Below, piece after piece: positions 1,340-47,383 of a DNA stretch of 59,323 nucleotides. Location of the stretch: positions 1-59,323 of the forward strand of contig CASEJM010000024.1 in NCBI GenBank assembly GCA_949288265.1, given 5' to 3'. The notes beneath the pieces are model-generated. The model was not told the origin of the DNA. It worked only from the letters and a program-made list of their open reading frames with translations, and made no database searches. The DNA comes from an uncultured Pseudomonadota bacterium. GTDB lineage: Bacteria; Pseudomonadota; Alphaproteobacteria; Rs-D84. A program made the position numbers and the translations under genes. Every line of letters begins with the position of its first letter. Position 1 is the stretch's first letter.

Positions 1340-1353
1340 GTCTTGTTTTTTTA

Positions 1354-1362
1354 TGTTATAAT
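1354..1362 (+). promoter_or_regulatory. Extended -10 promoter (TGtTATAAT) preceded by a T-tract
   Basis: TTTTTTATGTTATAAT lies 27 nt upstream of the ATG at 1390, with an AAGGGG SD in between. Confidence 0.45.
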
Positions 1363-1389
1363 TATATAGAGATATTAAAGGGGAAAATT

Positions 1390-1668
1390 ATGAAAAACGA
1401 TTTTCAAGAAAAACAAGATATGAAGTTGTTATCAAAGCAAAGGGTTTTATTTCGTGCTTTTATCTTAAATACTATTTTAGTTCTTTTTATATGGCTTTTG
1501 ACTTTTTTCCCGGAATTACTGTATATAGGCGTTCGGGTAACAGGTGTTTCTGGACCTATGTTTTATGTGTATGCCGTTGGAACACTTGCGCTGTGGGGGT
1601 TGGCAGGCGTTGTAATCTTTTTGGTTCCTGCTATGGCTTTATGGTGGGAAAGGAAAATGTTGAAATAA
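1390..1668 (+). CDS. Small integral membrane protein, unknown function
   Basis: 92 aa with two or three long hydrophobic segments, its own SD, and promoter and terminator signals on either side. Confidence 0.55.
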   Translation: MKNDFQEKQDMKLLSKQRVLFRAFILNTILVLFIWLLTFFPELLYIGVRVTGVSGPMFYVYAVGTLALWGLAGVVIFLVPAMALWWERKMLK

Positions 1669-1695
1669 AAAACCGGCTTTTGCCGGTTTTTATTT
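1669..1695. terminator. Bidirectional hairpin terminator between convergent genes
   Basis: AAAACCGGC-TTTT-GCCGGTTTT with A/T runs on both sides. Confidence 0.6.
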
Positions 1696-2019
1696 TCGAA
1701 AACTAATCTTTGCAACAGCGTCACGACCGAAATATTTATTTATTTTTTCTTTTATTTCTTCTGTCATGTAACTTAATTGTAACGTAAGAGCAGGATTTGT
1801 TGGGCGCAATGTTATGTTAAAGCGACCGTCTTTCATTTTTTTTATTGCAACTATAGTTGCTATACTTGCAATTTCTGCACCCATAATTTTTTCCCAACGC
1901 TTAACCAAATCTGCATCGGACGCACGTATACCAAACATTTGCATCAATTCACCCATAGCACTGGCAAGCGTTTGAGGACGTTTTGACCGTTTATCAAAGT
2001 TATTTGGTTGGTTTGACAT
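1690..2019 (-). CDS. DUF721 (DciA-type) protein
   Basis: About 110 aa. The pattern ..W..IMG..IA..T.....K.G.....L.....A..L.LSYM..EI...IN.YFG...V..I.F matches the DUF721 layout. Confidence 0.6.
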   Translation of the reverse strand: MSNQPNNFDKRSKRPQTLASAMGELMQMFGIRASDADLVKRWEKIMGAEIASIATIVAIKKMKDGRFNITLRPTNPALTLQLSYMTEEIKEKINKYFGRDAVAKISFRK

Positions 2020-9165: not shown

Positions 9166-10005
9166 TTCTTTAAACCGAGACGGTATTTTGATAACGCGCT
9201 TTAGACCAAACATAGCAGGTTTATCCATTGCATAAATAGGACGCGTATATGTTTGTATGATTCGTGCAATTTTTAACCAGTTTTCGTTGCGCGCAGATAA
9301 AGTTGTTACGGCGTTTATTGTACCGTTACCACGTCGACGTAAATGGTTAACCCAATCACTTCCTCGTGCTGAGGCCTTATCAATTAACATTTGCATATCA
9401 ACGGCCCCAAAGTGTAATAAATATAAATTTTTATCAATATGAAAGTTATGACCATGTATGCTGTGAAAACCACTTCCCCATTTGATGGGTTTATTAATAA
9501 CTACTGGTTTAGTGTATCGGGTCGAAAGCAGAGCATATTGACGTTGTTGCAATAATGGAAGTCCTTTGTCTAAGATTTTTTCTATGTTTAGATTCTGACC
9601 TACGTCAAGGCCAAGACCAGATACGCTTGTATTAATTTTTAGTTCTGATAAATATTCTGATAATGTTTTTTTTACCGCAGGGTCAACTATTAAAAATTCG
9701 TCGCAGTCACATCCTATAACAATATCATATTTTTTTAATAATTCTTTCGCCAATTCAGATAATTTATTTATACGATATTTATCACCAGCTGCACGTGACA
9801 TGTTTATGTGTGGAAATTTTTCTATATGGGCTTTTCCGCTATTTGCAGGAATTTTTTGATCTTCACCATCTAAATATATATAAAGATTTTCATTGCCTAG
9901 TTCGCTGCCATAATATTTTATCCAGCGTTCTAGAAAAAAATCATCATTGCGGGCCATTGTTATGGCCGCAATTTTTTTTAATTTTTTTATTTTTGATATC
10001 ATCAT
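9154..10005 (-). CDS. Glycosyltransferase family 2-like protein (Glyco_tranf_2_4-like)
   Basis: AAITMARNDD.FLERWIKYYG...G.ENLYIYLDG.DQ and CDCDEF motifs. It overlaps the convergent GT4 gene by 12 nt. Confidence 0.55.
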   Translation of the reverse strand: MMISKIKKLKKIAAITMARNDDFFLERWIKYYGSELGNENLYIYLDGEDQKIPANSGKAHIEKFPHINMSRAAGDKYRINKLSELAKELLKKYDIVIGCDCDEFLIVDPAVKKTLSEYLSELKINTSVSGLGLDVGQNLNIEKILDKGLPLLQQRQYALLSTRYTKPVVINKPIKWGSGFHSIHGHNFHIDKNLYLLHFGAVDMQMLIDKASARGSDWVNHLRRRGNGTINAVTTLSARNENWLKIARIIQTYTRPIYAMDKPAMFGLKRVIKIPSRFKESNV

Positions 10006-14221: not shown

Positions 14222-14249
14222 AAAATCCCCACTTTTATGGGGATTTTTT
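14221..14249. terminator. Bidirectional hairpin terminator
   Basis: AAAAATCCCC-ACTTTTAT-GGGGATTTTTT between convergent genes. Confidence 0.65.
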
Positions 14250-15528
14250 AATGCTTTCCACCAATCTTGGTTCTGCCGCCCATCAATGCTTGTAGCTTTT
14301 TAGGTATGTTTACACTACCATCGGCATTTTGATGATTTTCTAAGAATGGAACTAAAGCACGTGGTACAGCAATCCCTGTATTATTTAAGGTTGCACAGAA
14401 TTTAACCTCGTTTGTACCATTTTCACGGTATCTGGTATTTGTTCTGCGTGCTTGGAATGTGCCAATCGAAGAGCAGCTGCCCAGTTCTTTATAGGCATTT
14501 TCACTTGGTACCCACGCTTCTACATCGTTCATTTTTACTTTATTGAATCCCATGTCGCCAGTTGAATTTGCAATTACGCGATAAGGTAATTCTAAATCTT
14601 CTACTACTTCGCATAAATTATTCAAAAGGTGTTCGTGCATTTCATCTGATTGTTCCGGCGTACAAAATACGTATTGTTCGACTTTGTTAAATTGATGAAA
14701 ACGCGCCAGACCACGGGTATCCCTACCAGCAGCCCCGGCTTCTTTTCTAAAACATGGAGAAAAACCAGCATATTTAATTGGCAATGCACTTTCCGGTAAA
14801 ATTTCACCGCTATGTAAAGAGTTTAAAATTATTTCAGCCGTTCCGGCTAAGCATCTGTCTGTATCAGTTAACATAAATACATCGTTGTTCATTACGGATA
14901 AGTCGGCCCCCATAAAATGTCCCGCATCAAATATGGTTTGCGGTTTCGTAATAGACGGACATTCTATAAAGCGAAATCCTTTACTTATCAATTTTTGTAT
15001 TACATACGTTTCTATTGCCAATTGTAATTCCGCCGCTTCACCAATTAAACAATATGTGCGTGTACCGCAGATTTGTGCAATTTTTTCTGGCATCCACCAA
15101 CCGTTCATGTCCAGCAAATCCCACTGAGCACGTGGCGTAAAGTCAAATTCTTTTGGTTTGCCTATTCGGCGAACTTCTACATTTGCACTGTCATCGGGAC
15201 CGATAGGAGCCTTTACATCGGGAATTTGGGGCACACGGTGTAATAAATCATTTAGCAATGCCTCTTTTTCTGCAAGTTCAGCCATATCGGCGGCAATTTC
15301 ATCACTTATTTGTTTAGATTTTGCAATTAATGGGGATTTGTCTGCGGCATTTGGTATTTCACGAGTTATTTTATTCTTTTCCGCAGTCATGTTTTGAGTT
15401 ATTGTTTTTAGTTCACGTACCCGTACGTCTAATTTTAAAATTTCGTCCACGCGATCTTCAAACCCCTTGACTTTGCAAGCATTTTTTACTTTGTCAGAAT
15501 TCTCACGAATAAATCTTATGTCTAGCAT
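14248..15528 (-). CDS. serS: Seryl-tRNA synthetase
   Basis: MLDIRFIREN start, an N-terminal coiled-coil arm, and class II motifs (FRKEAGAAGRDTRGL.R.HQF.KVE, GTGIAVPRALVP.LEN). Confidence 0.97.
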   Translation of the reverse strand: MLDIRFIRENSDKVKNACKVKGFEDRVDEILKLDVRVRELKTITQNMTAEKNKITREIPNAADKSPLIAKSKQISDEIAADMAELAEKEALLNDLLHRVPQIPDVKAPIGPDDSANVEVRRIGKPKEFDFTPRAQWDLLDMNGWWMPEKIAQICGTRTYCLIGEAAELQLAIETYVIQKLISKGFRFIECPSITKPQTIFDAGHFMGADLSVMNNDVFMLTDTDRCLAGTAEIILNSLHSGEILPESALPIKYAGFSPCFRKEAGAAGRDTRGLARFHQFNKVEQYVFCTPEQSDEMHEHLLNNLCEVVEDLELPYRVIANSTGDMGFNKVKMNDVEAWVPSENAYKELGSCSSIGTFQARRTNTRYRENGTNEVKFCATLNNTGIAVPRALVPFLENHQNADGSVNIPKKLQALMGGRTKIGGKH

Positions 15529-15612
15529 AATGTTATCCTTAATTTTTATTATTTTTTATAATGGTAATATCGCTTTTACAAAAGCGCAACTTAATATAAA
15601 ATATATCATAAA

Positions 15613-15681
15613 TTAAATCAGCACCCCAAAAGGGGATGAAGAAAATAGAAAAAAAAGATATTGTTTTTTCATACTGTTCAT
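15613..15681 (-). promoter_or_regulatory. Candidate serS leader peptide ORF with a Ser-codon run
   Basis: Encodes MNSMKKQYLFFLFSSSPFGVLI*, or a 19-aa form from the in-frame ATG at 15672. TCT TCA TCC CCT is followed by a CCCC-TTTT-GGGG hairpin, and a second hairpin lies at 15571-15586. Confidence 0.5.
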
Positions 15682-15682
15682 A

Positions 15683-15711
15683 ATTTTATTGTTAATACTT
15701 AGAAAAATCAA
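15683..15711 (-). promoter_or_regulatory. Sigma70-like promoter (TTGATT-17-TAAAAT) for the serS leader
   Basis: Hexamers read on the minus strand. The -10 ends 10 nt before the ATG at 15672. Confidence 0.45.
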
Positions 15712-22259: not shown

Positions 22260-22352
22260 TTTTTAAGGATTTATAAACTATTTTTCTTTACATAATCGGC
22301 TTTTTTTACTATTCTGAACCCATATAAATGGATATATTTAAGGAGAAAAGTT

Positions 22353-22661
22353 ATGGAAGAAACAACGGCAGTCGTAGAAACTGCAACTAATACCGCTTCG
22401 GCAACTGTAAATAACTGGTGGGGTATGTTGCTTTACTGCTTGATAATATTTGCGATAATTTATGTGTTTATGGTACGACCAAACAAAAAGCGTATGGCTG
22501 AATATCAGAAAATGATTGATGCTTTAAAGATTGGTGATCGTGTTATGGCCGCCGGAATTTATGGCACCATTAAAAAAATAAATGAAAAATCAATAGAAAT
22601 GGAAATTGCAGATGGCGTCGTAATTGAAGTAAATAAAGGCGCAATCGCGAACGTTGAATAA
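22353..22661 (+). CDS. yajC: Preprotein translocase subunit YajC
   Basis: One TM followed by RPN.KR......M...L..GD.V....GI.G.I. It lies immediately upstream of secDF. Confidence 0.85.
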   Translation: MEETTAVVETATNTASATVNNWWGMLLYCLIIFAIIYVFMVRPNKKRMAEYQKMIDALKIGDRVMAAGIYGTIKKINEKSIEMEIADGVVIEVNKGAIANVE

Positions 22662-22673
22662 AAGGGTTGTGGT

Positions 22674-34552: not shown

Positions 34553-36475
34553 ATGAATGAGAAGTTTATAAAAGCTGTTAGAACGCCAGAAGAAGCGGCA
34601 AAAAAATTACGTAAATTTATAGAAAAGAAAAAGCCGCTTGATTATGTTCAACAATCCCGTCAAAAAAAAGAAAGGAACGGTGATAAAAATCCTTACTCAA
34701 TGTTTATTGATTCCGCAGAAGTTCTGGGTTTAAGTGCCGCAAAATTTACTGCGTGGTTGGCGGCCGGGGGCAGTCAATTTTTGCTTACGCTGGCACGCTG
34801 GTTGACGATGGATAATGTTTTCTTGCGCAAAATGGAGAAAAAATTTGAATCAATAAATGTTACTAAAAATAAGGACGGGAAAAATAAAAAGCTAGCGGTT
34901 ATTTTAAAAGAATATCCAACTTCATCTGCATATGTTTTGTGGTTGCTTAGTTTGGTTGCCGTTGCTGGTTCCGGATATCTAACGGCAGAGATAGCACCCA
35001 AAGCTATTAGTAACTATAAAGAAAAACGTTTGGCTAAAGAGGCAGAAAAACAAGCCCAGGGTACATATAGAGCTTTTTTAAATAAGGTTCAACCAATAGT
35101 TCCGTTTCTTATTGCTGATTTAATTGCGAAAGAGGGCGTCCATGTAGATAAAAAAACTGGATTGCATACCCCATATTTTGATTCGGAAAATATTGCAACA
35201 ATTGGTTTCGGATCGACAAAATTAAAAAACGGCAGAAGGGTTACAAAGGATACTCGACCAATAACGACAGAAGAAGCATATGAGTTGGCCCGTTGGCATT
35301 TAGAAGAAGAAACTTTTTTCGTTTTATATTGTTATGATGTTGCTTTAGATAATGTAAATATAAATTCTACGGAAGAAGCATTAGCCTTGTCGTCAATGTG
35401 CTATAATGCTTATTCTAAGATCATAGAAGATAAGACAGACATAAATAGTCAAAAAAGATTTGCAGAGTTAAGAAAACTATATGGCGAATATGGTTATTCT
35501 GTTACCGATGATGCGGTACGAAAAGTTTTTGAGGAATATCCGATAATAAAACCAACCAGTTTCGGAAAGCTTTGGGTAGAAGGGGCAGATAAAGAACAAC
35601 TTGCCGATGCCTTAGGTGGATTCTTGAGAAATGGACGAGGTATTTATTGGCGGCGTTGGTTAGAAGCAGGCTTGTTGACTGGGGATATAAAACCAGAAAT
35701 GTTATTGAACTGCCCAACAAATGGAATGTATGAATTCTTTTGCGTAATGGGACAAAAGAAAAGTTCGTTTTTTACAGGTGAAGCTGGTAATAGAAAAGTA
35801 AATAAAAATACATATAAAATATTTGAAGAATGGTTGAAAAATCCTGTTAATGCGAAGGGAGAAAGTTTAAAGCATTGGAAAAAAGTTTCGGATTATATGC
35901 CCGAAGATGTGGTTGATTTCTGTCAGAAAGGCGAATGTAAGTTAAACAATAAGAATTTTAAACAATTTGTGAAAACAAGAGAAGAAATTTCAAACGAAAC
36001 TTATACTATGGGGTATGACGAACAATATAAAAAAGCTATAAATGCGTATAAAGAAAAAGATTATAAAAGCGCGGCCAAGAAGTTTGAACAAATGTTAGAA
36101 GATTATCCTAATAATGCTTTATTGCATAATGATTTGGCTGCTACGTATAATCACTTGGGACGCTATGAAGAAGCAATCATACACACGCGTAAAATATTAC
36201 ACGAAATAGGTGATAAAAGCCAATATGCTGCTGCGCAGTATAATGCAGGTTTCGCATATGAAAAACTTGGTGATTTTGATAGGGCTTTGATGAATTATAA
36301 TTTATCCGTTGAAAATGGAAACCTTAACGTTCGTAAAGATATAGAAAGGGTAAAAAAACTTAGGTCAAAACAGACTATCGCTTTTCGTAATGCCGCAAAA
36401 AATATATCTGATATAGATTTTGTAGAGGAACAAATTTTATATAATAATGTTAAAAAATCTGGGAAGATGGCATGA
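34553..36475 (+). CDS. Membrane-anchored lysozyme-like (GH24-like) protein with C-terminal TPR repeats
   Basis: Two hydrophobic segments in the first 150 aa. KEG...PYFDSENIATIGFGST....G..V......IT.EEA..L resembles the phage-type lysozyme core. TPR-like repeats occupy the last 130 aa. Confidence 0.5.
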   Translation: MNEKFIKAVRTPEEAAKKLRKFIEKKKPLDYVQQSRQKKERNGDKNPYSMFIDSAEVLGLSAAKFTAWLAAGGSQFLLTLARWLTMDNVFLRKMEKKFESINVTKNKDGKNKKLAVILKEYPTSSAYVLWLLSLVAVAGSGYLTAEIAPKAISNYKEKRLAKEAEKQAQGTYRAFLNKVQPIVPFLIADLIAKEGVHVDKKTGLHTPYFDSENIATIGFGSTKLKNGRRVTKDTRPITTEEAYELARWHLEEETFFVLYCYDVALDNVNINSTEEALALSSMCYNAYSKIIEDKTDINSQKRFAELRKLYGEYGYSVTDDAVRKVFEEYPIIKPTSFGKLWVEGADKEQLADALGGFLRNGRGIYWRRWLEAGLLTGDIKPEMLLNCPTNGMYEFFCVMGQKKSSFFTGEAGNRKVNKNTYKIFEEWLKNPVNAKGESLKHWKKVSDYMPEDVVDFCQKGECKLNNKNFKQFVKTREEISNETYTMGYDEQYKKAINAYKEKDYKSAAKKFEQMLEDYPNNALLHNDLAATYNHLGRYEEAIIHTRKILHEIGDKSQYAAAQYNAGFAYEKLGDFDRALMNYNLSVENGNLNVRKDIERVKKLRSKQTIAFRNAAKNISDIDFVEEQILYNNVKKSGKMA

Positions 36476-38484
36476 AAATTTATGTAAATTATAATGATAA
36501 GCGTTGGCGTAAATATAAAATTAATTTTGAAAAAATTGCGCTTGCTGCAGTAATGGGCAATCGTCCTGATTCGGAAGTATCTATAATCTTAACAAACGAT
36601 AAAGAAATTCATAAGATAAATCGTGAGTATCGAAATATAGATAAACCTACAAACGTTTTATCATTTGAACTAGGTGATGATATTTTATTAGGGGATATTT
36701 ATATATCTTTGGATACTGTTTTAAAAGAAGCAAAGGAAGAAAATATATCTTTGTCAGATCATACGGCGCATATGGTTGTACATGGTATGTTGCATCTGCA
36801 GGGGTATGATCATATAAAAGAAAAAGATGCAGAAGTAATGGAAAATAAAGAAACAGAAATTTTAAAAGGTATGAATATAAAAAATCCGTATGCGTCTGAT
36901 TATAACGCATGCAAGAATTCTTCATGTTGTCCCGGAAATAAATTTTTTTCATGGTTACATTCTTTAAGAATACGTGAAAATTCTATTTGGCAATATTTAA
37001 TAATGTTTTTATTAGGGGCAATTGCTTCACTTGGTTTTGCACCTTTTCATATATGGTGGGCTACATTAGTTGCGATTGCGGCGGCATATAAAATATCTAT
37101 ATGTGGGACTAATAGATCAAGTCTGGTAAAAACTTTTTTACAAATTTTGCCGTTCAGTGCCGCTTATGCTATATCAATGTTTTGGTGGGTTGTAAACTCT
37201 ATATACGTTGTACCTGAATTGGCAGCGCAATTTGCTGTGTGGACTTTGCCGGCTCTTATAGGAATAGGTATTGTGGGCGGAATAATTTTTGCAATTCCTT
37301 TTGTTGTGATAAGGCGTATGTGCACGTTTCCTGCATGTAGAGCGTTTTTATTTGCTGCAATTTGGGTGTTGATTTTGTGGTTAAGGGAATGGCTGTTTAC
37401 GGGTTTCCCCTGGAATCCACTTTCTAACATTTTAATGCCTTTCCCTGTTTTGGCAAATTCTATGTCTTTATGGGGCGCTTTGGGAAGCTCTTTTGTGATA
37501 ATAGGATTGCTTGCTTCGATTGCAGAGTTAATTGGAAATCATAAAGATAAAACTGTATGGGGTACTTTTTGTATTTTTATAGTTCTAAGTATTTTAGGCG
37601 TCGGCTATGGTTATAAAAACATTCATTTGGCAAAAAATGTTGATGTAGATAGCCCAATAATTAGAATCGTTCAACCGGCTCGTAGCGCAGTGCAAAAAGC
37701 TACTCATTCCCGAGAAGAAGCATTAAAAAATGCAACAGAAAATGTAAAGTTTTTAATAAACTTGGCTTCTGCATCTGGGAACATTGATTTGGTTGTTTTC
37801 CCAGAAACTTCTTATCCTTTTATTGTTCTTGATGGGGATGATATGCCGATTTCCGTCGCATTAAATAATAATATCATTATTGGTACTAATTTTTATTCTT
37901 CTGGAAATTTATATAATTCAATGATTTTCGCGACACCAGATGGTGAAATTCAAAAAATATACAGTAAATCTCATTTGGTTCCCTTCGGAGAATATAGACC
38001 TTTCGGTGACATAATTCCGACACCTGGGCAATTATCAAAAGGTAATGGACCAGAACTTATAAGTATTAATGTACATAATAAGAATTTTACTTTCGTACCA
38101 GCAATTTGTTATGAAATAATCTTTTCAGACTCTTTGGTTCCATCGGGAAAGCAACCTGATGCAGTTATAAATATTACGAATGATACTTGGTTCGGTAATA
38201 CCCCCGGAACGTATCAGCATCTTGATATGGTTCGCAGGTATGCAATAGAATCAGGTTTGCCTATAGTCAGAGCAAATTATTCTGGAATCAGTGCTTTCAT
38301 AACATCTTATGGAACTATTATATCCGAAATACCTGTCGGAAAATCTGGTTATATGGACGGCGTTATAGGTGGCGCTCATTTTACCCTATATCGGGAAATT
38401 GGACGGGATGGTTGGATTGTAATAATATTATTATTTTCATGTATATGCACCATATCTTTGTATGCACTAAAAAAACAAAGATAG
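36472..38484 (+). CDS. Fusion protein: YbeY endoribonuclease domain + apolipoprotein N-acyltransferase (Lnt)
   Basis: Residues 1-140 are YbeY (NVLSFE, HGMLHLQGYDH, end ..NPY). The rest is Lnt (8-TM region, nitrilase domain with FPETS, SKSHLVPFGEY, PAICYEIIF). It is a single uninterrupted 670-codon ORF. Confidence 0.85.
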   Translation: MKIYVNYNDKRWRKYKINFEKIALAAVMGNRPDSEVSIILTNDKEIHKINREYRNIDKPTNVLSFELGDDILLGDIYISLDTVLKEAKEENISLSDHTAHMVVHGMLHLQGYDHIKEKDAEVMENKETEILKGMNIKNPYASDYNACKNSSCCPGNKFFSWLHSLRIRENSIWQYLIMFLLGAIASLGFAPFHIWWATLVAIAAAYKISICGTNRSSLVKTFLQILPFSAAYAISMFWWVVNSIYVVPELAAQFAVWTLPALIGIGIVGGIIFAIPFVVIRRMCTFPACRAFLFAAIWVLILWLREWLFTGFPWNPLSNILMPFPVLANSMSLWGALGSSFVIIGLLASIAELIGNHKDKTVWGTFCIFIVLSILGVGYGYKNIHLAKNVDVDSPIIRIVQPARSAVQKATHSREEALKNATENVKFLINLASASGNIDLVVFPETSYPFIVLDGDDMPISVALNNNIIIGTNFYSSGNLYNSMIFATPDGEIQKIYSKSHLVPFGEYRPFGDIIPTPGQLSKGNGPELISINVHNKNFTFVPAICYEIIFSDSLVPSGKQPDAVINITNDTWFGNTPGTYQHLDMVRRYAIESGLPIVRANYSGISAFITSYGTIISEIPVGKSGYMDGVIGGAHFTLYREIGRDGWIVIILLFSCICTISLYALKKQR

Positions 38485-44894: not shown

Positions 44895-45455
44895 ATGTAT
44901 ATTTTAAATGCGATAAAGAAATTTAAATTTCTGGGTTTGCTATGTGCCTGTGTAATAGGAATTGTTGTTATGCCAAATAAGGCCGCTTTGGGGGCATGGA
45001 CATATTGTGATGATTGCTATAAGTGTGTGCTTTGGGATTCTACATTTGGATGTCTAAAGTGTGAATATGATGAAGCTTATTGTGGAAGTGAAGGGGCGTG
45101 TACAGGAAATCAAGTATGGGATCCTGTTTTAGAAAAATGTGTGTGTGATCCTTATCCTATGTGTATGGAAGGCCAGATTGTAAATGAAGAAACTTGTGAG
45201 TGTGAGGGTGAGCCAGGTGGCGAAGTGGCTTTTTGCGAAGACGGTTTTTATTCTGCAAATGGCGAATGTTTACCTTGCCCGGTTGTAGATAACTTTACCG
45301 TTATAAATAGTGTTTATCCATGTGGTGGACCACATATTGCGGAAGATATGCTAGATTCTATATTAGGGTGCTTTTATGGTGGCGGCGGAAGTTGTACATA
45401 TGATGACAATTCCGGTACATTTATATTTACAGATAACTGTTTTTATTCAGAATAG
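44895..45455 (+). CDS. Secreted cysteine-rich protein, paralog of 16822-17370
   Basis: Signal/TM segment, more than 25 Cys, CEDGFYSANGECLPCP (C-x2-G-x-Y...C-x2-C), and a C-terminal ..DDNSGTFIFTDNCFYSE tail. Confidence 0.6.
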   Translation: MYILNAIKKFKFLGLLCACVIGIVVMPNKAALGAWTYCDDCYKCVLWDSTFGCLKCEYDEAYCGSEGACTGNQVWDPVLEKCVCDPYPMCMEGQIVNEETCECEGEPGGEVAFCEDGFYSANGECLPCPVVDNFTVINSVYPCGGPHIAEDMLDSILGCFYGGGGSCTYDDNSGTFIFTDNCFYSE

Positions 45456-45473
45456 TGGAATAAGCAAGTTTAT

Positions 45474-45502
45474 TTGACATTATTGGTTTTAAGTACTAAC
45501 AT
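45474..45502 (+). promoter_or_regulatory. Sigma70-like promoter (TTGACA-17-TAACAT) for the thrS leader
   Basis: Consensus -35. The -10 ends 9 nt before the leader ATG at 45512. Confidence 0.45.
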
Positions 45503-45511
45503 TGATTTATC

Positions 45512-45568
45512 ATGAATAGGTTTATTGTATTTTTTGCTACAACTACAACAACCCCCACGGGGGTGTAG
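45512..45568 (+). promoter_or_regulatory. Candidate thrS leader peptide ORF with a Thr-codon run
   Basis: Encodes MNRFIVFFATTTTTPTGV*. ACA ACT ACA ACA ACC CCC ACG is followed by a C5/G5 hairpin at 45551-45564, and a second hairpin lies at 45577-45592. Confidence 0.55.
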
Positions 45569-45649
45569 ATTCTATTTGCGGTTTTAACCGCACAGTGTAA
45601 TAATCAATAACAATTTAATTTTATTTATATAAATAAAAAGGTTTTTATT

Positions 45650-47383
45650 ATGGCATATCCTATTGAAACGATTCGTCATTCTTTGGCGCATGTTATGGCG
45701 GCAGCAGTACAAAAACTGTATCCAGATGTAAAATTTGCTGGGGGACCGGCGATTGAAAACGGGTTCTATTACGACTTTGATACGGAACATAGATTTTCTG
45801 AGGAAGATTTTGAGAAAATAGAACAAGAAATGCGTTCACTGATCAAATCAAATGGTCGATTTGAACAACGTAACGTATCTTTGGAAGAAGCAAAACAAAT
45901 TTTTGCCGATCAACCGTATAAGATGGAATGGTTGAACGAATATGATGCCGCGGGGGAACAGTTGTCTATATATACTTTCCGCGACTTCATAGACTTATGT
46001 CGCGGACCGCACGTTGAAAGCTCAAAAGACTTGCCACGCGATTCGTTTAAGGTTCGCAATGTTGCGGGGGCGTATTGGAAAGGCGATGCAAAAAATAAAA
46101 TGTTGCAACGTATTTATGTAGACGCGTTTGCTTCTAAAGAAGAATTAGAACAATTCTTAAAAATGCAAGAAGAAGCTGCAGGACGTGATAATCGTAAGTT
46201 AGGTAAAGATATGGATTTATTCCATTTTGAACCAGATTATGCACCAGGGGCGGTATTCTGGCATGATAAGGGATATAAAATTTACCGTAAATTAATTGAA
46301 TATATCCGTCATCGTCAGGAAAAAGCAGGATATTTAGAAATTTCTACTCCGTCCGTTATGGATCGTTCTTTATGGGAACGTAGCGGTCACTGGGCTAAAT
46401 ATGGTGAACATAATTATTCTGGTAAAACTCAGGATGGTAAAACTTTCTGCGTAAAACCAATGTCTTGCCCAGGCGGAATGTTAGTATTTGGTCAGGGAAT
46501 TAAGTCTTATAAAGATTTGCCTATGTATTTGGCCGAGTTTGGTAAAGTTAATCGTTATGAAACTGCTGGTAGTCTGTCTGGGTTGATGCGCGTTCGTGAA
46601 TTTACTCAAGATGATGCTCATATTTTCTGCACGGAAGAGCAATTAGAATCCGAAGTCGTAAAAGTGTTGCGTTTTATTAAAGATATTTATGGTAAGTTTG
46701 GCTTTGATAAGATTTCTATGAAACTAGCAACCCGTAAAGAATCTGAATTTCGTATAGGGTCTGATGAAATATGGGACAAAGCAGAAGGGGCTTTAAAACA
46801 TGCGTTGGATGCAAATGGAATTGAATACGAAATTGCAGAAGGTGATGCAGCATTCTATGGACCGAAAATTGATAATTACTTGAAAGATGCGCTGGGGCGT
46901 ACATGGCAGTGTGGCACAGTACAATTAGACATGAATTTACCGGAAAGATTTGATTTGTCTTATATCGGTGAAGACGGTGAAAAGCACCGTCCAATTATGT
47001 TGCATCGTGCTATGTTAGGATCTATTGAACGTTTTATGGCGATATTGTTAGAATCAACCGGTGGAAACTTGCCTTTGTGGTTGTCACCAGAACCGGTTGT
47101 TGTTACCCCTATTTCTGAAAAGTTCCGTGATTATGCAGAAGCTATAGTTGATGCTTTGCATGATGCTGGTATATATGCACGGGCTGATTTACGTGACGAG
47201 AAGGTTAATTATAAAATCCGTGAATTATCTTTGGCAAAAACACCAATTATCGCGGTGGTTGGTGAAAAAGAAATGGCGGACAAAACCGTAACTTTACGTC
47301 GTCTTGGGGTAGAAAAGCAGGAAGTAGTAAAACTGGATGACTTTATATCTCAGATGAAAGACGCGGTAAAGATGCCGGCATAA
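45650..47383 (+). CDS. thrS: Threonyl-tRNA synthetase (no N-terminal TGS domain)
   Basis: Starts at the editing domain (IRHSLAHVMAAAVQ..YP......GP.IENGFYYDFD). It has the class II core and an anticodon-binding domain. Length is 577 aa. Confidence 0.95.
   Translation: MAYPIETIRHSLAHVMAAAVQKLYPDVKFAGGPAIENGFYYDFDTEHRFSEEDFEKIEQEMRSLIKSNGRFEQRNVSLEEAKQIFADQPYKMEWLNEYDAAGEQLSIYTFRDFIDLCRGPHVESSKDLPRDSFKVRNVAGAYWKGDAKNKMLQRIYVDAFASKEELEQFLKMQEEAAGRDNRKLGKDMDLFHFEPDYAPGAVFWHDKGYKIYRKLIEYIRHRQEKAGYLEISTPSVMDRSLWERSGHWAKYGEHNYSGKTQDGKTFCVKPMSCPGGMLVFGQGIKSYKDLPMYLAEFGKVNRYETAGSLSGLMRVREFTQDDAHIFCTEEQLESEVVKVLRFIKDIYGKFGFDKISMKLATRKESEFRIGSDEIWDKAEGALKHALDANGIEYEIAEGDAAFYGPKIDNYLKDALGRTWQCGTVQLDMNLPERFDLSYIGEDGEKHRPIMLHRAMLGSIERFMAILLESTGGNLPLWLSPEPVVVTPISEKFRDYAEAIVDALHDAGIYARADLRDEKVNYKIRELSLAKTPIIAVVGEKEMADKTVTLRRLGVEKQEVVKLDDFISQMKDAVKMPA

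What the first reader, a model, noticed from the sequence alone, without database searches (positions are those of the whole stretch)
45474..45649. Thr-codon-run leader ORF in front of threonyl-tRNA synthetase: candidate leader-peptide attenuator on an aaRS gene
The 194-nt gap before thrS is one of the longest non-coding stretches in a very tightly packed window. It contains ATG(45512)...TAG(45568), encoding MNRFIVFFATTTTTPTGV. That peptide has five consecutive Thr codons (ACA ACT ACA ACA ACC) and a sixth two codons later, and Thr is the cognate amino acid of the downstream synthetase. The run leads straight into a C5/G5 hairpin (45551-45564), the only GC-rich element in the spacer, which a ribosome paused on the Thr codons would cover. 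A second hairpin, GCGGTT-TT-AACCGC (45577-45592), follows. A TTGACA-17-TAACAT promoter (45474-45502) would start the transcript only 1-3 nt before the ATG, and there is no SD, so the leader ORF would be translated leaderless. The logic resembles the E. coli thrL and pheM leader peptides. However, thrS is classically regulated by an operator mimic in E. coli or a T-box in Firmicutes. The second hairpin has no U tract, so the read-out may not be classical intrinsic termination; Rho-dependent or translational control are alternatives. The same grammar recurs upstream of serS in this window (15529-15711).
Basis: partly seen in the sequence, partly recalled or inferred. Interest (0 to 1): 0.72.

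Follow-up and report, generated by a model that had tools for sequence, protein, structure and literature searches.

The report
Threonine-codon leader peptide controlling thrS
A tiny 18-codon gene packed with threonine codons sits in front of the threonyl-tRNA synthetase gene in every relative examined of this small-genome gut bacterium, with a serine-codon twin in front of seryl-tRNA synthetase in some of them, so it is very probably a sensor that tunes each enzyme to the supply of its own charged tRNA.

Summary
The window comes from Candidatus Enterousia (order Rs-D84), a gut Alphaproteobacterium with a genome of about 1 Mb.

- **Conservation.** All 53 thrS loci of this clade carry the same module. 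A consensus promoter lies 6-10 nt before an ATG with no Shine-Dalgarno sequence. The ORF has 17-21 codons in 52 of 53 loci (26 in L032) and reads M-K/N-(Phe-rich)-Thr(4-8)-Pro-x-Gly-Val-stop.
- **Codon-level selection.** The Thr codons vary only at third positions.
- **RNA-level selection.** Hairpin A-CCCC/GGGG-U is fixed through rare synonymous codons (ACC and GGG, 53/53 each).
- **Paralogue.** A homologous module with Ser codons precedes serS in the window and 14 other loci.
- **Outgroup.** The nearest outgroup has no leader.
  - The hairpin with its U-rich tail is itself the terminator-like element.
  - There is no antiterminator or pause hairpin.
  - The "second hairpin" sits inside a conserved second promoter, TTGCGN-17-TATAAT.

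My best reading is a leaderless, single-hairpin, ribosome-mediated attenuator plus a basal internal promoter. The sensor role is well supported. The read-out and its sign are inferred. It is a new variant of a known kind.

The parts
45474..45502 (+). Promoter P1: -35 TTGACA (45474-45479), 17-nt spacer, -10 TAACAT (45497-45502). It would start the transcript 0-4 nt before the leader ATG.
   Evidence: The equivalent TTGAC/TTGAT-17-TAnnAT is present at nearly all 53 loci, with a -10-to-ATG gap of 6-10 nt in 52 of 53. Canonical terminators of unrelated upstream genes often abut its -35.
45512..45568 (+). Leaderless leader ORF encoding MNRFIVFFATTTTTPTGV plus stop. It has no Shine-Dalgarno sequence.
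   Evidence: An ORF of 17-21 codons (26 in L032) with the same plan is present in 53/53 loci. The ATG is invariant in alignment A1. The 5' part is unstructured, with mean MFE -2.1 kcal/mol and z +0.5.
45539..45553 (+). Regulatory run of five Thr codons (ACA ACT ACA ACA ACC). A sixth Thr codon, ACG, lies at 45557-45559 in the hairpin loop.
   Evidence: It is the only run of 5 or more ACN codons in the window. Across the 53 loci the two codons before Pro are Thr in 53/53. At positions -3 to -6 the entropy is 0.45-0.86 bit at codon positions 1 and 2 and 1.5-1.8 bit at position 3.
45551..45564 (+). Hairpin H1: A-CCCC / GGGG-T with a 4-nt loop. It is encoded by the last codons of the leader (ACC CCC ACG GGG GTG). 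Terminator-like.
   Evidence: The stem is invariant and the loop variable. dG is -8 to -10 kcal/mol at all loci. ACC is used 53/53 and GGG 53/53, against 11% and 19% genomic usage. It is called terminator-like on the + strand in L008 and L025 but not in the window.
45566..45577 (+). Stop codon TAG plus the U-rich tail (TAGATTCTATTT; most relatives have TAATTTCTATTT). It could be an imperfect terminator U tract, an A/T-rich region upstream of the P2 -35, or both.
   Evidence: mean 6.4 T in the 12 nt after H1. A U-rich tail also follows H1 in serS leaders that lack P2.
45576..45604 (+). Internal promoter P2: -35 TTGCGG (45576-45581), 17-nt spacer, -10 AATAAT (45599-45604; most relatives have TATAAT).
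   Evidence: TTG(C/T)(G/A)N-16/17/18-(T/A)ATAAT is found in 51/53 loci, with a spacer of 17 in 42. The spacing is kept although the hairpin loop length varies. The scan tool does not call it, because the -35 matches only 3 of 6.
45577..45592 (+). Hairpin H2 (T-GCGGTT-TT-AACCGC-A). Its 5' arm overlaps the P2 -35 and it has no U tract. Its role is unexplained.
   Evidence: More than 20 different complementary stem variants occur across loci, e.g. GCGG/CCGC, GCGC/GCGC, GCGA/UCGC, GCAC/GUGC and GUGC/GCAC. It co-occurs with P2 and is lost together with it in serS loci L102, L105 and L108.
45605..45649 (+). A-rich, G-poor 5' UTR with the thrS Shine-Dalgarno sequence (AAAGG, 45637-45641).
   Evidence: Pooled over the 53 loci the composition is A 57%, C 13%, G 7%, T 22%, against 19% G in other intergenic DNA. 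RNAalifold finds no conserved structure here.
45650..47383 (+). thrS, encoding a threonyl-tRNA synthetase of 577 aa without the N-terminal TGS domain.
   Evidence: Pfam matches tRNA_SAD, tRNA-synt_2b and HGTP_anticodon. Orthologues are 76-92% identical in the clade.
15561..15711 (-). Paralogous serS leader module. P1 is TTGATT (15711-15706), 17 nt, TAAAAT (15688-15683). The ORF runs 15672-15613 and encodes MKKQYLFFLFSSSPFGVLI plus stop. H1 is 15635-15624. P2 is TTGCGC (15589-15584), 17 nt, TACCAT (15566-15561). H2 is 15587-15571. serS is 15528-14248.
   Evidence: Ser-run leaders precede serS in 14 further loci. They are homologous to thrS leaders over the whole module, with z up to 25.

Best explanation
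This is a ribosome-mediated attenuator for thrS, built from a leaderless leader peptide.

**Proposed sequence of events**
- Promoter P1 starts an RNA whose first bases are the ATG of an 18-codon ORF.
- A 70S ribosome translates about nine codons, mostly hydrophobic and Phe-rich, and then meets a run of Thr codons.
- The last Thr codon (ACC) and the next three codons (CCN NNN GGG) form the 5' arm, loop and 3' arm of a short GC hairpin, H1.
- H1 is followed by the stop codon and a U-rich tract, so it resembles a leaky intrinsic terminator.
- When Thr-tRNA(Thr) is scarce, the ribosome dwells on the last three or four Thr codons. Its footprint of about 13 nt ahead of the P site covers the 5' arm of H1.
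- H1 then cannot fold, and RNA polymerase continues from the strong P1 into thrS.
- When Thr-tRNA(Thr) is plentiful, most P1 transcripts end at H1. thrS is then served mainly by the weaker internal promoter P2, which lies just after H1.

**Shown**
- All sequence elements, their conservation, and the selection acting on codons and on the hairpin.
- The paralogous Ser version on serS.
- The absence of any antiterminator or pause hairpin.

**Inferred**
- That P1 and P2 fire.
- That the ORF is translated without a leader.
- That H1 terminates transcription.
- The sign of the response.
For: **Conservation**
- 53/53 Rs-D84 thrS loci carry the module.
- The outgroup at 61% identity carries none.

**It is read as codons**
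- In the run, codon positions 1 and 2 are nearly fixed and position 3 is free.
- The two codons next to H1 are Thr in 53/53.

**The run matches the downstream gene**
- Thr runs occur only before thrS and Ser runs only before serS.
- That holds for 63 of 63 hits in about 1.09 Mb.
- The serS and thrS modules are homologous end to end, so the sensor was retargeted by changing ACN to UCN.

**H1 is selected as RNA**
- ACC and GGG are used 53/53, against 11% and 19% genomic usage.
- The loop varies freely.

**H1 resembles a terminator of this genome**
- It looks like the genuine terminators here, which have 4-6-bp GC stems.
- It passes the terminator scan in L008 and L025.

**P1 transcripts reach the gene**
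- serS loci L102, L105 and L108 have leader and H1 but neither P2 nor H2.
- P1 transcripts must therefore cross H1 to express an essential gene.

**Leaderless start**
- The -10-to-ATG gap is 6-10 nt in 52/53 loci, there is no SD, and the 5' end is unstructured.

**Precedents**
- pheM-pheST in E. coli (own knowledge).
- A predicted His leader before hisS paralogues (PMC2965389).
- Leaderless leader peptides in Corynebacterium and Mycobacterium.
Against: - There are no expression data of any kind.
- The U tract after H1 is interrupted and starts 3-5 nt after the stem. It starts 7-8 nt after the stem in L027, L030, L046 and L048.
- In the window itself H1 fails the simple terminator scan.
- No pause hairpin synchronises ribosome and polymerase. 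Modelling holds such synchrony to be essential for sensitive attenuation (PMC1183508).
- The ORF reads through the whole hairpin. An unstalled ribosome that follows the polymerase closely would therefore also melt H1.
- A ribosome stalled at the first codons of a long run would not reach H1.
- H1 is invariant, so base-pair covariation cannot be shown for it.
- H2 has no role in this model.
Confidence: 0.55

Rival explanations
1. The sensor is the same but the sign is opposite, as in the E. coli pyrBI attenuator (a coupling sensor). When Thr-tRNA is plentiful, the ribosome follows RNA polymerase closely through the ORF, which spans H1, and so prevents the terminator from folding. When Thr-tRNA is scarce, the ribosome lags in the run, H1 folds and P1 transcripts end. 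P1-driven thrS expression would then rise with Thr supply, and P2 would provide the floor.
For: - The ORF always extends through H1, and the stop codon comes 1-2 codons after the G run in 52 of 53 loci.
- There is no antiterminator and no pause hairpin.
- serS loci with P1 alone need high default read-through for an essential gene.
- The host lacks amino-acid biosynthesis, so matching synthetase level to supply is conceivable (PMC12306168).
Against: - Every known synthetase control is homeostatic, with more enzyme made when charged tRNA falls. This holds for T-box, pheST and E. coli thrS (own knowledge).
- A coupling sensor does not need the cognate codons to abut the hairpin. Yet the two codons next to H1 are cognate in 53/53 thrS leaders and 14/15 serS leaders.
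Confidence: 0.15
2. The sensor is the same, but the read-out is not intrinsic termination at H1. One possibility is that a ribosome stalled on the run blocks Rho loading on the G-poor leader and UTR, as at the tna operon. Another is that it changes processing or stability of the P1 transcript, with H1 and H2 acting as structural barriers.
For: - The U tract is imperfect.
- The leader 5' part and the UTR are G-depleted and unstructured, with 7% G in the UTR.
- H2 is conserved yet has no role in the terminator model.
Against: - Whether Rs-D84 genomes encode Rho was not determined.
- The Thr run offers few YC dinucleotides.
- RNAalifold finds no conserved alternative pairing involving the SD or the UTR.
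- H1 has the form of this genome's own terminators.
Confidence: 0.15
3. P2 is the only promoter that serves thrS. P1, the leader and H1 form a separate short transcription unit that influences P2 only indirectly. This could work by promoter occlusion or interference when read-through occurs, or by the terminating polymerase clearing or blocking the P2 region.
For: - P2 geometry is as conserved as that of P1.
- H1 plus its T-rich tail abutting a -35 is the usual terminator-promoter junction in this genome.
- H2 and P2 co-occur.
Against: - Three serS loci have leader and H1 but no P2, so P1 must feed the gene there.
- A polymerase that reads through P2 still transcribes thrS, so interference alone gives no clear regulatory logic.
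Confidence: 0.08
4. The feature is not regulatory. The ORF would encode a small hydrophobic peptide with a function of its own, or it would be a by-product of a conserved terminator-promoter junction or repeat element.
For: The N-terminal half is hydrophobic. There is no direct evidence of regulation.
Against: - The N-terminal sequence is poorly conserved, while the Thr or Ser run always matches the downstream synthetase.
- Conservation in the run has a codon periodicity.
- No other copies occur in about 1.09 Mb.
- Upstream genes differ among loci while the module stays with thrS.
Confidence: 0.03

Closest known systems
E. coli pheST attenuator with the pheM leader peptide (own knowledge: Fayat, Springer and co-workers, 1980s)
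   Same: A short upstream ORF rich in the cognate amino-acid codons controls transcription of an aminoacyl-tRNA synthetase operon through ribosome position.
   Different: pheM has a normal ribosome-binding site, alternative 1:2, 2:3 and 3:4 pairings, and a canonical terminator. Here the start is leaderless, there is a single hairpin formed by the last codons of the ORF, no antiterminator, and an internal promoter. The amino acids and the phylum also differ.
thr operon leader thrL (Rfam RF00506) and the other classical leaders (his, trp, leu, ilv)
   Same: A run of Thr codons in a leader ORF acts as a sensor of charged tRNA.
   Different: Those leaders control biosynthetic operons, which this organism lacks. 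No Rfam leader family matches. There is no pause or antiterminator hairpin.
Predicted His leader peptide upstream of hisS paralogues in bacilli (PMC2965389)
   Same: It is a comparative-genomics prediction of a cognate-codon leader peptide upstream of synthetase-family genes.
   Different: The phylum and amino acid differ. That prediction rests on a premature canonical terminator.
Leaderless leader peptides of Actinobacteria: C. glutamicum ilvBNC (PMC11857589) and mycobacterial poly-Cys short ORFs (cited in PMC13236596)
   Same: The transcription start lies within about 1 nt of the leader start codon, there is no SD, and regulatory codons sense charged tRNA.
   Different: Those regulate biosynthetic operons. 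The ilvBNC case uses a three-hairpin design, and the organisms are high-GC Gram-positives.
E. coli pyrBI attenuator (own knowledge)
   Same: The leader ORF runs through the terminator hairpin. There is no antiterminator. The ribosome itself competes with hairpin folding.
   Different: pyrBI senses UTP through polymerase pausing, not a cognate aminoacyl-tRNA. Its ORF is longer and has an SD.
E. coli thrS translational operator (tRNA mimic) and Firmicute T-box leaders of thrS and serS
   Same: The regulated genes are the same, and so is the presumed purpose: synthetase homeostasis.
   Different: There is no T-box match. There is no anticodon-arm mimic: the H1 loop is 4 variable nt, the H2 loop has variable length and sequence, and both lie well upstream of the SD.

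Membership tests
Ribosome-mediated (leader-peptide) transcription attenuators | A short ORF upstream of the regulated gene carries a cluster of codons cognate to that gene's amino acid | tested here: met
   There are 4-8 Thr among the nine codons before Pro in 53/53 thrS leaders. Ser clusters occur in 15 serS leaders. All 63 of 63 strict hits match their gene.
Ribosome-mediated (leader-peptide) transcription attenuators | The ORF is translated (start signal present, selection acting on codons) | tested here: met
   The evidence is indirect. The ATG is invariant and lies 6-10 nt after a conserved -10 in 52 of 53 loci. The 5' end is unstructured. Conservation in the run has a three-base periodicity. 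No ribosome profiling data are available.
Ribosome-mediated (leader-peptide) transcription attenuators | An intrinsic terminator (GC hairpin followed by a U run) lies between the leader and the gene | tested here: inconclusive
   H1 has dG of -8 to -10 kcal/mol and is called terminator-like in L008 and L025. It is not called in the window. The U tract is interrupted and offset by the stop codon.
Ribosome-mediated (leader-peptide) transcription attenuators | Mutually exclusive pause, antiterminator and terminator pairings (1:2, 2:3, 3:4) | tested here: not met
   RNAalifold finds only H1. The region from the ATG to the run is less structured than shuffled sequence, with mean MFE -2.1 and z +0.5. 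H2 does not compete with H1.
Ribosome-mediated (leader-peptide) transcription attenuators | Read-through responds to the level of the cognate charged tRNA | not testable with these tools
   This needs reporters or coupled in vitro transcription-translation.
T-box riboswitch (RF00230) | Match to the T-box covariance model (specifier loop, T-box sequence, terminator/antiterminator) | tested here: not met
   There is no Rfam hit at gathering threshold in the window, and none up to E=10 in 45400-45720.
Rfam Thr_leader (RF00506) and other curated leader families | Match to the covariance model | tested here: not met
   Searches return only chance-level hits to unrelated families.
E. coli-type thrS operator (tRNA-Thr anticodon-arm mimic) | Stem-loops with an anticodon-like 7-nt loop containing the Thr anticodon, next to the thrS ribosome-binding site | tested here: not met
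   The H1 loop is 4 nt and variable. The H2 loop is 3-10 nt and variable, with no conserved anticodon triplet. In the window, 45 nt separate the end of H2 from the SD.
pyrBI-type coupling attenuator | The leader ORF extends through the terminator hairpin and there is no antiterminator | tested here: met
   The stop codon lies 1-2 codons after the 3' arm in 52 of 53 loci. No other structure is present. Whether coupling rather than stalling is what gets read out could not be tested.

The most novel reading that the evidence does not exclude
Rs-D84 bacteria have no amino-acid biosynthetic operons to regulate. They keep a minimal, portable attenuator cassette dedicated to aminoacyl-tRNA synthetase genes. 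The cassette has a leaderless ORF whose final codons are themselves the terminator hairpin, no antiterminator and no pause site, and it is fused to an internal promoter that contains a covarying hairpin. It has been copied between genes and retargeted simply by changing the first base of the regulatory codons (ACN to UCN). It may also work by a logic not seen in classical attenuators, such as direct ribosome-hairpin competition, possibly with inverse sign, or a Rho-linked read-out.
Probability: 0.35. Interest if true: 0.75.

Novelty: new variant of a known kind. Interest (0 to 1): 0.62.

Why it matters
- **A rare kind of control.** To my knowledge, leader-peptide control of a synthetase gene has been shown experimentally only for pheST. 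thrS and serS are textbook cases of other mechanisms: tRNA-mimic operators and T-boxes.
- **A third solution.** This clade would have a third solution for the same genes. It is kept in genomes under 1 Mb that have lost amino-acid biosynthesis, which suggests that sensing charged tRNA at the synthetase level stays valuable in obligate symbionts.
- **A minimal design.** The module has one hairpin and a leaderless start. That makes it an attractive system for asking what ribosome-mediated attenuation strictly requires.
- **A natural retargeting experiment.** The Thr-to-Ser retargeting shows how such sensors can evolve new specificity.
- **Practical value.** The motif lets annotators mark these short ORFs and the two promoters in hundreds of gut and rumen MAGs.

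Tried and rejected
- **Rfam.** The whole window at gathering threshold, and 45400-45720 up to E=10, gave nothing relevant. There was no T-box and no Thr, Phe or other leader family.
- **SD sequestration or long-range switch.** RNAalifold on 50 leaders finds only H1. The weak AU pairing between the P2 -10 region and the thrS start seen in the window fold is not in the consensus.
- **Upstream pause or antiterminator hairpin.** None exists; the leader 5' part is unstructured.
- **H2 as terminator.** It has no U tract on either strand, and it is tied to P2 instead.
- **H2 as a binding site for a dimeric protein.** This is unlikely, because the loop length varies 3-10 nt and the arms covary.
- **A second uORF** starting at the TTG of P2 and running to the thrS start. 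It is open in L008 but stops after three codons in the window, so it was rejected by inspection.
- **H1 as the terminator of the upstream gene.** Upstream genes differ between loci and often have their own canonical terminator before P1.
- **Other members.** The strict and relaxed scans of about 1.09 Mb found only thrS and serS. Clustering the large ORFs turned up no other synthetase apart from gltX, which has no intergenic region of its own in the window. Extending the window by 10 kb on each side added no other synthetase. A generic pattern scan of the metagenome collection was judged too unspecific and was not run.
- **Literature.** Searches found no paper describing a thrS or serS leader peptide.

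Full report
**1. Observation.**
- P1 is TTGACA (45474-45479), 17 nt, TAACAT (45497-45502).
- Nine nt later comes ATG 45512, with no Shine-Dalgarno sequence.
- The ORF encodes MNRFIVFFATTTTTPTGV and ends at TAG 45566-45568.
- Five consecutive Thr codons occupy 45539-45553, and a sixth lies at 45557-45559.
- The C/G hairpin is at 45551-45564 and a second hairpin at 45577-45592.
- The thrS ATG is at 45650.

Pfam confirms a threonyl-tRNA synthetase with tRNA_SAD, class II core and anticodon-binding domains.

This is not chance. It is the only run of 5 or more ACN codons on either strand of the window, where a Markov model expects 0.07. The motif CCCC-N3-6-GGGG occurs only twice in 59 kb, upstream of thrS and upstream of serS. 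The spacer is only the 11th longest ORF-free gap in the window.

**2. Organism and relatives.** A scan of one genome per species with the ThrRS protein returned 54 loci at 76-92% identity. All are MAGs of gut, rumen or termite Alphaproteobacteria, and many are named Candidatus Enterousia. It also returned 26 loci at about 61% identity. Enterousia belongs to the uncultured order Rs-D84. Its genomes are under about 1 Mb and lack amino-acid biosynthesis pathways (PMC12306168).

**3. The leader is conserved and is read as codons.**
- All 53 usable thrS loci (the window plus 52 others) have the same plan.
- A -35/-10 pair (TTGAC/TTGAT, 17 nt, TAnnAT) is followed after only 6-10 nt by an invariant ATG (52 of 53 loci).
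- The ORF has 17-21 codons in 52 of the 53 loci and 26 in L032.
- It reads M-K/N-x, then Phe/Leu/Ile-rich residues, then 4-8 Thr among the nine codons before Pro, then Pro-x-Gly-Val-stop.
- The two codons before Pro are Thr in 53/53.
- At run positions -3 to -6 the entropy is 0.45-0.86 bit at codon positions 1 and 2 but 1.5-1.8 bit at position 3. That is the signature of selection on codon identity.
- The part from the ATG to the run is unstructured, with mean MFE -2.1 kcal/mol and z +0.5 against shuffles. This suits a leaderless start.
- The outgroup at 61% identity has no leader or Thr run, and its ThrRS keeps a 67-residue N-terminal extension that the Rs-D84 enzyme lacks.

**4. Hairpin H1 is selected as RNA.**
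- The stem A-CCCC/GGGG-U is invariant, while the 4-nt loop varies.
- The stem is made from the last Thr codon, the Pro codon, the x codon and the Gly codon.
- ACC is used in 53/53 leaders although it is 11% of Thr codons in window genes. GGG is used in 53/53 although it is 19% of Gly codons. "P-x-G" is therefore a by-product of the hairpin.
- Its dG is -8 to -10 kcal/mol.
- Genuine terminators of this genome are equally short GC stems followed by a T run.
- H1 is followed by the stop codon and a U-rich tail (TAATTTCTATTT in most loci).
- The simple scan calls it terminator-like in L008 and L025 but not in the window, whose tail is TGTAGATTCTATTT.
- Because H1 never varies, base-pair covariation cannot be used for or against it.

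**5. A second promoter and hairpin H2.**
- Directly after the tail lies TTG(C/T)(G/A)N, then 16-18 nt, then (T/A)ATAAT. This is present in 51/53 loci, with a spacer of 17 in 42.
- H2 starts at the G of that TTG. Its arms covary in more than 20 complementary variants, and its loop varies from 3 to 10 nt. The -35/-10 spacing stays constant throughout.
- I read this as a sigma-70-type internal promoter, P2. In the window it is 45576-45581 and 45599-45604, with a hairpin inside it.
- The UTR that follows is 57% A and 7% G and has no conserved structure.
- H2 has no U tract. Its function is unexplained.

**6. The serS twin.**
- On the minus strand upstream of serS the window has the same cassette with Ser codons: P1 at 15711-15683, an ORF at 15672-15613 encoding MKKQYLFFLFSSSPFGVLI, H1 at 15635-15624, and P2/H2 at 15589-15561.
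- Ser-rich leaders ending in S-S-P-x-G precede serS in 14 further loci.
- In the other roughly 30 clade serS loci the gene sits directly behind trxB or has a plain promoter.
- serS and thrS cassettes align over their whole length, with local alignment z up to 25. They are therefore paralogues that were retargeted by ACN-to-UCN changes.
- Three serS loci (L102, L105, L108) keep leader and H1 but have neither H2 nor P2. There, P1 transcripts must pass H1 to express an essential gene, and H2 goes with P2 rather than with the sensor.
- A strict scan for promoter, leaderless ATG, short ORF and hairpin over about 1.09 Mb of clade DNA gave 63 hits. Every hit was a Thr leader upstream of thrS or a Ser leader upstream of serS.
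- A relaxed scan added nothing. No other synthetase with its own intergenic region was in the sampled DNA.

**7. Mechanism.**
- No antiterminator or pause hairpin exists. The only available logic is therefore direct competition between the ribosome and H1.
- The cognate codons abut H1. A ribosome with any of the last three or four of them in its A site would cover the 5' arm, given about 13 nt of mRNA ahead of the P site (established ribosome geometry).
- I therefore favour this model: low Thr-tRNA(Thr) leads to a stall, H1 is masked, and read-through from P1 into thrS rises. P2 gives basal expression.
- Confidence in the sensor role is about 0.85. Confidence in this specific read-out is about 0.55 for the statement as a whole.
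- There are three weak points:
  - The U tract is imperfect.
  - Nothing synchronises ribosome and polymerase, and modelling stresses that synchrony (PMC1183508).
  - The ORF crosses the whole hairpin, so a closely coupled, unstalled ribosome would also prevent folding.
- That last point motivates the main rival, a pyrBI-like coupling sensor of opposite sign. A Rho-linked or stability read-out, and interference between P1 and P2, remain possible.

**8. Comparison with known systems.**
- It works like pheM-pheST of E. coli and like classical leader peptides.
- It shares the leaderless start with Corynebacterium ilvBNC and with mycobacterial short ORFs.
- It shares the ORF-through-terminator layout with pyrBI.
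- It is not a T-box, not an Rfam leader family, and not a tRNA-mimic operator.
- It fails one defining feature of classical attenuators, the alternative pairings.
- A His leader upstream of hisS paralogues has been predicted in bacilli (PMC2965389).
- I found no report of a thrS or serS leader peptide. The library searched is incomplete.

**9. Verdict.** This is a real, strongly conserved regulatory cassette. It is best classed as a new variant of ribosome-mediated attenuation, applied to two synthetase genes in reduced-genome gut Alphaproteobacteria. Its function, its sign and the role of H2 need experiments.

Noticed in passing
window 15561-15711 (minus strand), upstream of serS 14248-15528: A paralogous leader cassette with Ser codons (MKKQYLFFLFSSSPFGVLI), its own H1, and P2/H2. 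Across the clade it is patchy: about 15 of roughly 45 serS loci have it. The others sit directly behind trxB or have a plain promoter.
   Followed up: yes
window 45650-47383; loci L055-L080: ThrRS of the whole Rs-D84 clade lacks the N-terminal TGS domain and starts at the editing-domain region. The outgroup at 61% identity keeps a 67-residue extension (MVAIKLPDGS...) and has no leader. Loss of the domain and gain of the leader coincide phylogenetically.
   Followed up: partly
window 45577-45592 and 15571-15587: A covarying GC hairpin is embedded between the -35 and -10 of the internal promoter, with its 5' arm overlapping the -35. Its loop length varies while the promoter spacing is kept. No known role fits.
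   Followed up: partly
window 36472-38484: A single 670-aa ORF matches both the rRNA maturation RNase YbeY (residues 13-137) and apolipoprotein N-acyltransferase Lnt (residues 230-615). This is either a gene fusion or a missed frameshift or stop.
   Followed up: no
L053 about 2850-2990; L031 about 2930-2960; L122 about 9940-9990: Extra inverted-repeat or GC-hairpin insertions lie in the UTR between P2 and the synthetase start codon. One is an element of about 130 nt with long terminal inverted repeats in L053. They look like small mobile or repeat elements.
   Followed up: no
window 44895-45455: A Cys-rich 186-aa ORF with an N-terminal hydrophobic segment and no Pfam match lies between the HlyIII-family gene and the thrS leader. 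Most relatives have the HlyIII gene directly upstream of the leader.
   Followed up: no
window 1340-1999 and 22260-22673: These are the two longest ORF-free gaps in the window (660 and 414 nt). Neither has an Rfam match.
   Followed up: no
leader codons -8 and -7 relative to Pro, e.g. window 45530-45535: Phe-Phe (UUY UUY) directly before the regulatory run is common in both thrS leaders (31 and 26 of 53 at the two positions) and serS leaders. It may be a U-rich polymerase pause or simply compositional.
   Followed up: no
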